A DNA stretch of 64,000 bases from Escherichia coli. Lineage in GTDB: Bacteria > Pseudomonadota > Gammaproteobacteria > Enterobacterales > Enterobacteriaceae. The stretch lies in assembly GCF_009931435.1 (NCBI RefSeq), contig NZ_CP043414.1. One strand, written 5' to 3'. The notes under the pieces are model-generated. The model searched no databases. It was not told the DNA's origin and saw nothing but the letters and a program-made list of their open reading frames with translations. The translations under genes and the position numbers were made by a program. Within the stretch, counting starts at the first letter, position 1. Every line of letters starts with the position of its first letter. This document shows, piece by piece, positions 44,283-44,323 of the stretch.

Positions 44283-44323
44283 TAGAAATCAGACCAGTGG
44301 CGAGAGTATAGGTCGGACCAGAT
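44283..44323 (-). promoter_or_regulatory. Two FadR operator sites in the fadL promoter
   Basis: Minus strand reads AtCTGGTCCGACCTATA (44307-44323) and CACTGGTCTGATTTCTA (44283-44299), matching FadR operator sequences as I recall them. Confidence 0.6.

What the first reader, a model, noticed from the sequence alone, without database searches (positions are those of the whole stretch)
44283..44323. Tandem FadR operators between fadL and yfcZ, plus a candidate site at fadI
Two FadR-type sites lie ~8 bp apart on the fadL side of the divergent region, and a third FadR-like dyad (AGGTCaGACC) lies at 44991..45008 upstream of fadI. This is consistent with coordinated FadR repression of fatty-acid uptake and anaerobic beta-oxidation.
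Basis: partly seen in the sequence, partly recalled or inferred. Interest (0 to 1): 0.2.

Follow-up and report, generated by a model that had tools for sequence, protein, structure and literature searches.

The report
Known FadR operators at fadL, fadI
These are the textbook binding sites for FadR, the E. coli fatty-acid repressor, in the fadL promoter (two sites) and ahead of fadI (one site); they are real, deeply conserved and already described, so the finding is correct but ordinary.

Summary
The window is E. coli chromosome: fadL (-), yfcZ (+), fadIJ (+). The two 17-mers at 44283-44299 and 44307-44323 (fadL sense strand) are the published fadL FadR operators. Site 2 (CACTGGTCTGATTTCTA) is identical to the K-12 gel-shift probe. 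Site 1 (ATCTGGTCCGACCTATA) differs from K-12 (AGCTGG...) at one flanking base. Published distances put the fadL start site at about 44298, so site 1 covers -25..-9, overlapping the -10 TATACT, and site 2 covers -1..+16. That geometry fits repression by blocking RNA polymerase, relieved by long-chain acyl-CoA. The gap between the 17-mers is 7 bp, not 8, and is 7 bp in all 112 Enterobacterales sequences compared. The fadI site, ATCAGGTCAGACCACTT (44992-45008), is identical to K-12. It is the best FadR-consensus match in the window and the most conserved 17-mer of the yfcZ-fadI spacer in 98 sequences. Site 2 would not stand out by consensus alone; homology, conservation and published binding support it. 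I found no direct binding data for the fadI site in the papers I could read. The "anaerobic" label for fadIJ is disputed. A fourth FadR site, the fabB activator site, lies at 63980-63996. Verdict: already known, low interest.

The parts
44307..44323 (-). fadL FadR operator 1 (promoter-proximal upstream site, -25..-9): ATCTGGTCCGACCTATA
   Evidence: It differs from the K-12 EMSA probe site AGCTGGTCCGACCTATA (PMC4259882) only at position 2. The core CTGGTCnGACCT is a perfect match to the consensus. Core bases are 96-100% conserved in 112 sequences, while the central 'n' base (44315) varies freely: T 84, G 18, C 10.
44283..44299 (-). fadL FadR operator 2 (-1..+16, covers the transcription start): CACTGGTCTGATTTCTA
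   Evidence: Identical to the K-12 EMSA probe site. The left half ACTGGTC matches the consensus perfectly; the right half is degenerate. Positions 44286-44298 are 97-100% conserved in 112 sequences.
44300..44306 (-). 7-bp spacer between the two operators (CTCTCGC on the fadL strand)
   Evidence: The length is 7 bp in all 112 sequences, while the bases vary.
44305..44310 (-). fadL -10 hexamer TATACT, sharing four bases (TATA) with operator 1
   Evidence: Read from the sequence. It spans -12..-7 if the start site is 44298. It is 97-100% conserved in 112 sequences.
44330..44335 (-). likely fadL -35 hexamer TTGCAA (19-bp spacer), inside a TGTT-N7-TGTT direct repeat (44328-44342) that fits the published ArcA site '5 bp from FadR site 1'
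   Evidence: Read from the sequence. Positions 44328-44335 are invariant in 112 sequences. The ArcA position is stated in PMC3460868. The assignment here is inferred, not tested.
44298..44298 (-). inferred fadL transcription start site
   Evidence: Feng & Cronan place the functional CRP site 157 bp upstream of the start site and a rejected CRP site 57 bp downstream. TGTGAtttcggTCACt (44448-44463) and TGTTACGTACTGTAACA (44234-44250) fit both distances only if +1 is about 44298.
44448..44463 (.). CRP-cAMP site of the fadL promoter (TGTGATTTCGGTCACT), centred about -157
   Evidence: Read from the sequence. The position agrees with PMC3460868. It is moderately conserved.
42857..44197 (-). fadL coding sequence (RefSeq start; an in-frame ATG also lies at 44203)
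   Evidence: ORF list. RefSeq annotation of a 99.9% identical genome and of K-12.
44569..44853 (+). yfcZ (DUF406), divergent from fadL, followed by an intrinsic terminator at 44870-44898 plus a T-run
   Evidence: annotation; terminator: 12-bp stem, 8 GC pairs.
44992..45008 (+). fadIJ FadR operator ATCAGGTCAGACCACTT (reverse strand AAGTGGTCTGACCTGAT), ending 26 bp before the fadI ATG
   Evidence: Best consensus match in the window, 2 mismatches of 16 on the reverse strand. Identical to K-12. Most conserved 17-mer of the spacer, first of 165 windows; 80 of 98 sequences are identical.
45035..46345 (+). fadI coding sequence (fadJ follows)

Best explanation
These are the known FadR operators of the E. 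coli fadL and fadIJ promoters. FadR is a GntR-family dimer. Without long-chain acyl-CoA it binds the 17-bp pseudo-palindromes. At fadL, one dimer sits on -25..-9, sharing bases with the -10 hexamer, and a second sits on -1..+16, over the start site, so RNA polymerase is excluded. At fadIJ a single dimer sits 26 bp upstream of the fadI ATG, over or just after the promoter's -10/+1 region. When fatty acids enter and are activated to acyl-CoA, FadR leaves the DNA and both transcription units are derepressed. CRP (activator) and ArcA (repressor) act on the same promoters. Shown here or in the cited papers: sequence identity to validated K-12 sites, promoter geometry, conservation, and FadR binding with acyl-CoA release for the K-12 fadL sites. 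Inferred: binding to this strain's site-1 allele, the exact fadIJ start site, and direct FadR occupancy of the fadI 17-mer.
For: The window is E. coli: 5425 of 5426 complete genomes match. The gene order fadL / yfcZ / fadI / fadJ is confirmed. Site 2 is identical and site 1 is 16/17 identical to the K-12 FadR gel-shift probes. PMC3460868 reports that both fadL sites bind FadR with equal affinity (about 50 nM), that binding is lost with oleoyl-CoA, and that this agrees with earlier DNase I footprints. A fadR mutant raises fadL expression about 2-fold. The geometry is -25..-9 and -1..+16 relative to a start site fixed by two published distances. In 112 Enterobacterales sequences the core bases are 96-100% conserved, the central 'n' of site 1 is free, and the spacer is always 7 bp. 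The fadI site is the top consensus hit and the most conserved 17-mer of its spacer. The review states that FadR directly represses fadIJ through a site overlapping the start site. fadL and fadIJ are the conserved core of FadR regulons in Enterobacterales, Vibrionales and Shewanella.
Against: Site 2 alone is not distinguishable from chance by consensus or matrix: 5 mismatches, rank 20, about 10 expected. Part of the conservation of site 1 (TATA) and of the first bases of site 2 could come from the -10 hexamer and the start site rather than from FadR. The site-1 allele ATCTGG has not been tested. I could not find the curated fadI 17-mer or a direct binding assay for it in any paper held, and the fadIJ start site is only a genome-wide prediction. 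FadR repression of fadL is modest, about 2-fold. LldR and PdhR, relatives of FadR, were also reported to bind these regions in vitro.
Confidence: 0.93

Rival explanations
1. The conservation reflects promoter elements only (-10, start site, initial transcribed bases). The FadR-like matches are incidental, at least for the weak site 2.
For: Site 1 shares TATA with the -10 hexamer and site 2 starts at -1. Site 2 has 5 mismatches and a chance-level matrix score. The non-consensus right half of site 2 is as conserved as its consensus half.
Against: Bases with no promoter role are invariant: GGTC..GACC of site 1 at -21..-13 and CTGGTCTGA at +2..+10. By contrast, the one position that the FadR consensus leaves free (44315) varies freely. 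Each K-12 site binds FadR on its own in gel shifts and is released by acyl-CoA.
Confidence: 0.03
2. The sites are shared or mainly used by other FadR-subfamily GntR regulators: LldR at fadL and PdhR at fadI. These recognise the same GGT-N3-ACC core and link lactate or pyruvate sensing to fatty-acid genes.
For: LldR genomic SELEX gives a peak in the yfcZ/fadL spacer and names exactly these two 17-mers as LldR boxes. fadL mRNA rose on LldR overexpression and fell in an lldR mutant. PdhR SELEX gives a peak at fadI/yfcZ with a smeared gel shift, and fadI/fadJ mRNA fell in a pdhR mutant.
Against: The LldR peak intensity at fadL was low, 6.6 against 62.9 at lldP. The PdhR paper assigns its box to a different sequence inside the start of fadI. 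An activator bound at -25..+16 is mechanistically awkward. FadR binding and acyl-CoA response are directly shown. This adds to the FadR explanation rather than replacing it.
Confidence: 0.03
3. The fadI 17-mer is a good consensus match but is not the operative FadR site. FadR control of fadIJ would then be indirect or act through another site.
For: I found no direct binding assay for this 17-mer in the papers held. The fadIJ start site is only predicted.
Against: It is the best FadR match in 64 kb. No other match of 6 or fewer mismatches lies in the yfcZ-fadI spacer. It is the most conserved 17-mer there across 98 sequences, bounded by unconserved DNA on its 3' side. The review cites Campbell 2003 for a FadR site overlapping the fadIJ start.
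Confidence: 0.01

Closest known systems
E. coli K-12 fadL promoter FadR sites 1 and 2 (DiRusso footprints; Feng & Cronan 2012, PMC3460868; probes in PMC4259882)
   Same: Same locus, same strand, same spacing. Site 2 is 17/17 identical and site 1 is 16/17 identical. The flanking promoter is also the same apart from that one base.
   Different: Position 2 of site 1 is T here and G in K-12 (+ strand 44322, A versus C). At most 36 of 5425 complete E. coli genomes share the window's 67-mer exactly. T is nevertheless the majority state in other Enterobacterales, 66 of 112.
E. coli K-12 fadIJ (yfcYX) promoter FadR site (Campbell, Morgan-Kiss & Cronan 2003, as cited in PMC9329746)
   Same: The whole 130 bp upstream of fadI, including the 17-mer, is identical to K-12.
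   Different: No sequence difference. That the curated site is exactly this 17-mer rests on my recollection of the literature plus the consensus and conservation evidence; the primary paper was not available.
E. coli fadD promoter, the other fad promoter with two FadR sites
   Same: It has two FadR sites, gives only modest (about 2-fold) repression, and also carries ArcA and CRP sites.
   Different: The fadD sites are 68 bp apart and differ more than 10-fold in affinity. The fadL sites are adjacent and have equal affinity.
fadBA operator ATCTGGTACGACCAGAT (single site)
   Same: Same 17-bp pseudo-palindrome. The window's site 1 shares its left arm, ATCTGGT.
   Different: fadBA has a single, nearly perfect palindrome and gives 5- to 10-fold repression, against about 2-fold for fadL.
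Shewanella oneidensis fadL-1 tandem FadR sites (PMC4537474)
   Same: Two tandem FadR sites ahead of a fadL gene. fadL and fadIJ are the FadR targets shared across the orders compared.
   Different: A different order of bacteria; those sequences were not compared here.

Membership tests
FadR (GntR-family) operator | 17-bp pseudo-palindrome matching aaCTGGTCnGACC(T/A)Gtt (PMC9329746) | tested here: met
   Site 1 matches 13/16 specified bases, with the core CTGGTCnGACCW perfect. The fadI site matches 14/16 on the reverse strand. Site 2 matches 11/16, with a perfect left half and a degenerate right half. Only site 1 and the fadI site pass at 3 or fewer mismatches in 64 kb, against 0.10 expected.
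FadR (GntR-family) operator | Identity or orthology with an experimentally bound FadR site | tested here: met
   The fadL sites align base for base with the K-12 gel-shift probes, 17/17 and 16/17. For the fadI site the K-12 sequence is identical, but the primary binding data could not be read.
FadR (GntR-family) operator | For repression: position overlapping the -10/+1 region of the target promoter | tested here: met
   The fadL sites lie at -25..-9 and -1..+16 relative to a start site fixed by two published distances. For fadI this is inconclusive: the site ends 26 bp before the ATG, but the start site is only predicted.
FadR (GntR-family) operator | Conservation of contact bases, with freedom at the central 'n', across species that have FadR | tested here: met
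   Results come from 112 sequences for fadL and 98 for fadI. GGTC/GACC is 98-100% conserved, the centre of site 1 is variable, and the spacer is fixed at 7 bp. One species (Tenebrionibacter) has lost the site-1 core.
FadR (GntR-family) operator | Binding by FadR protein and release by long-chain acyl-CoA on this exact DNA | not testable with these tools
   This is published for the K-12 fadL alleles. The window's site-1 allele (T at position 2) and the fadI 17-mer need a wet-lab assay.
FadR (GntR-family) operator | The genome encodes FadR | not tested
   fadR is not in this 64-kb window. Established knowledge says E. coli carries fadR elsewhere on the chromosome.

The most novel reading that the evidence does not exclude
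Operator 2 may be a composite element. Its non-consensus right half (GATTTCT, +10..+16) is as invariant across 112 Enterobacterales as the FadR half-site. It may therefore serve a second conserved function: a partner regulator such as LldR or OmpR, or a role at the 5' end of the fadL mRNA. Separately, the T-for-G change at position 2 of operator 1 might shift FadR affinity and basal fadL expression in this lineage. That allele is rare in E. coli but common in other genera.
Probability: 0.12. Interest if true: 0.2.

Novelty: already known. Interest (0 to 1): 0.05.

Why it matters
It matters little beyond annotation. The result confirms that this strain keeps the standard FadR wiring of fatty-acid uptake (fadL) and the second beta-oxidation complex (fadIJ). 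It also gives base-exact coordinates for the operators and promoter elements. The cross-species comparison adds a small point: the 7-bp spacing and both operators are fixed across Enterobacterales, even though repression of fadL is only about 2-fold.

Tried and rejected
1. Consensus search alone recovers site 1 and the fadI site but not site 2. A matrix built from six independent FadR sites ranks site 2 only 20th, so sequence statistics alone cannot validate it.

2. The generic sigma-70 scan did not find the fadL promoter, because its -35/-10 spacing is 19 bp. Its one hit (44389-44360) is at chance level. I placed the promoter from published distances instead.

3. I tried to retrieve the curated fadI 17-mer and its binding data. 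Two sequence-string searches of the paper library and look-ups of Campbell 2003, Feng & Cronan 2010 and one further PMC id tried from memory for Kazakov 2009 gave nothing. The exact curated fadI site is therefore cited from memory.

4. I could not assign fadI -10/-35 hexamers with confidence. TATGAT at 44988-44993 is good in E. coli but is TGTTAT in most other species. This is left open.

5. Rfam finds no RNA family in 44100-45100, so an RNA-element reading is rejected.

6. Other matrix or consensus hits in the window (48128, 52730, 54182, 47395, 34320) lie inside coding regions and are at the level expected by chance. I did not pursue them.

Full report
**Where we are.** The stretch 44150-45100 matches 5425 of 5426 complete E. 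coli genomes, the best at 99.9% and most at 95-99%. RefSeq annotation of the closest genome and of K-12 gives the gene order (ORFs):
- fadL, 42857-44197, minus strand, with an alternative in-frame ATG at 44203.
- yfcZ, 44569-44853, plus strand.
- fadI, 45035-46345, plus strand, followed by fadJ.

A strong intrinsic terminator follows yfcZ at 44870-44898.

**The observation.**
- On the fadL sense strand, 44323->44307 reads ATCTGGTCCGACCTATA.
- On the same strand, 44299->44283 reads CACTGGTCTGATTTCTA.
- Seven bases (CTCTCGC) lie between them, so the centres are 24 bp apart.
- 44992-45008 reads ATCAGGTCAGACCACTT.

A search with AACTGGTCCGACCTGTT at up to 3 mismatches finds exactly two places in 64 kb, site 1 and the fadI site, against 0.10 expected. 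Within the two intergenic regions the three named 17-mers are the three best matches to aaCTGGTCnGACCWGtt.

Site 2 is weak taken alone. It has 5 mismatches. A matrix built from six other FadR sites ranks it 20th, and about ten equally good positions are expected by chance.

**Match to curated sites.** The FadR gel-shift probes printed in PMC4259882 (Table 2) contain AGCTGGTCCGACCTATA (fadL site 1) and CACTGGTCTGATTTCTA (fadL site 2).
- Alignment of the window with K-12 shows site 2 and the whole surrounding promoter are identical.
- Site 1 differs at one base, position 2, which is T here and G in K-12 (+ strand 44322).
- Feng & Cronan 2012 (PMC3460868) report that each fadL site binds FadR with equal affinity, essentially complete at 50 nM.
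- The same paper reports that oleoyl-CoA abolishes binding and that this agrees with earlier DNase I footprints.
- It also notes that the two sites and their spacing are largely conserved in Citrobacter, Klebsiella and Enterobacter.
- It describes the sites as separated by 'only 8 bp'. By the 17-mer boundaries the gap is 7 bp.

**Promoter geometry.** The same paper places the functional CRP site 157 bp upstream of the fadL start site and a rejected candidate 57 bp downstream.
- TGTGATTTCGGTCACT (44448-44463) and TGTTACGTACTGTAACA (44234-44250) satisfy both distances only if +1 is about 44298.
- Site 1 then spans -25..-9 and site 2 spans -1..+16.
- The -10 hexamer TATACT (44310-44305) shares its first four bases with the 3' end of site 1. 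This explains why site 1 departs from the FadR consensus at positions 15 and 17.
- A TTGCAA at -37..-32 sits inside a TGTT-N7-TGTT repeat. That fits the published ArcA site '5 bp from FadR site 1'; this assignment is my inference.
- The geometry is that of a repressor excluding RNA polymerase.
- Despite two sites, repression is only about 2-fold.

**Cross-species test.** A coding-sequence pattern for the YfcZ motif CCCMDVGT, which is independent of the operators, pulled 120 loci from the genome collection. They are mostly Enterobacteriaceae, with some Serratia and Tatumella. The fadL / yfcZ / fadI order is kept in nearly all of them. I aligned 112 distinct fadL-yfcZ spacers and 98 distinct yfcZ-fadI spacers.

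For the fadL operators:
- The site 1 core is 96-100% conserved.
- Its central 'n' base is free (T 84, G 18, C 10), as the FadR consensus predicts.
- Site 2 positions +2..+14 are 97-100% conserved.
- The spacer bases vary, but its length is 7 bp in all 112.
- One species (Tenebrionibacter) has lost the site 1 core.
- The window's T at position 2 of site 1 is the majority state outside E. coli (66 of 112). Within E. coli, at most 36 of 5425 genomes share the window's 67-mer exactly.

For the fadI operator:
- The 17-mer is the single most conserved 17-bp window of its spacer, first of 165.
- It is identical in 80 of 98 sequences.
- Unconserved DNA borders it on the fadI side.

**The fadI site.** The review PMC9329746 makes three relevant statements:
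- FadR directly represses fadIJ.
- fadIJ is induced by long-chain fatty acids in a FadR-dependent manner.
- The FadR site in the fadIJ promoter overlaps the start site, citing Campbell et al. 2003. That start site is itself only a genome-wide prediction.

I could not read the primary paper or find the curated 17-mer in any text held. That the curated site is exactly this 17-mer therefore rests on my recollection, plus the consensus and conservation evidence above. The comparative study PMC5343134 names fadIJ and fadL as the FadR targets shared by Enterobacterales, Vibrionales and Shewanella.

- The two sites regulate fadL, not yfcZ. They lie more than 240 bp upstream of the yfcZ start codon.
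- The review argues that fadIJ is not specifically anaerobic. It is repressed by ArcA in anaerobiosis and controlled like fadBA.

**Rivals.**
- Promoter-only conservation cannot explain invariant GGTC/GACC at -21..-13 and +2..+10 alongside a free central base.
- Related GntR regulators may also touch these sites. LldR genomic SELEX names these same two 17-mers, and PdhR SELEX peaks at fadI/yfcZ. These signals are weak and add to the FadR role rather than replace it.

**One loose end.** The right half of site 2 (GATTTCT) does not match the FadR consensus, yet it is invariant across the family. I have no tested explanation for this.

**Verdict.** The feature is already known, and interest is low.

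Noticed in passing
window 63980-63996 (+): GGCTGATCGGACTTGTT is the FadR activator site of the fabB promoter. It is identical to the K-12 fabB gel-shift probe (PMC4259882). The window ends 4 bp later, so fabB itself is outside it.
   Followed up: partly
window 61516-61880: There are 3.9 tandem copies of a 94-bp REP/BIME-type unit between yfcL and mnmC. Three of them match the Rfam family naRNA4 (RF02564) at 81-82 bits. The closest complete genome (NZ_AP027764) has a single copy.
   Followed up: partly
window 35306-38962: About 3.66 kb is present here but absent from the closest genome, directly beside tRNA-Arg(CCT) at 38969-39043. It carries a LysR-type regulator ORF (36948-37832), a small membrane-protein ORF (36386-36844) and a truncated integrase-like ORF (38322-38636). 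It looks like a decayed islet at argW.
   Followed up: no
window about 29500-35000 (by offset from L122 9069-14393): Sucrose-utilisation genes lie next to dsdA with a truncated dsdX pseudogene. They comprise cscA, a LacI-family regulator, a kinase and an MFS transporter, as annotated in the closest genome.
   Followed up: no
window 44283-44290 (right half of fadL FadR site 2): The non-consensus half GATTTCT (+10..+16 of fadL mRNA) is nearly invariant in 112 Enterobacterales sequences, although it does not match the FadR consensus. This is unexplained.
   Followed up: partly
window 44322 (+ strand A; K-12 has C): This single-base allele is at position 2 of fadL FadR site 1. At most 36 of 5425 complete E. 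coli genomes share the 67-mer exactly. The same base is the majority state in other Enterobacterales and in E. albertii.
   Followed up: partly
window 44509-44517 and 44487-44493: Two strongly conserved blocks, GCGTAAAAT and ACTGGAG, lie upstream of yfcZ. They are probably the yfcZ promoter (-10 TAAAAT), which seems not to have been characterised.
   Followed up: no
locus L076 (NZ_JUET01000006.1, 407 bp, labelled Tannerella forsythia): This 407-bp contig encodes a YfcZ fragment 100% identical to E. coli. It is almost certainly E. coli contamination in that assembly.
   Followed up: no
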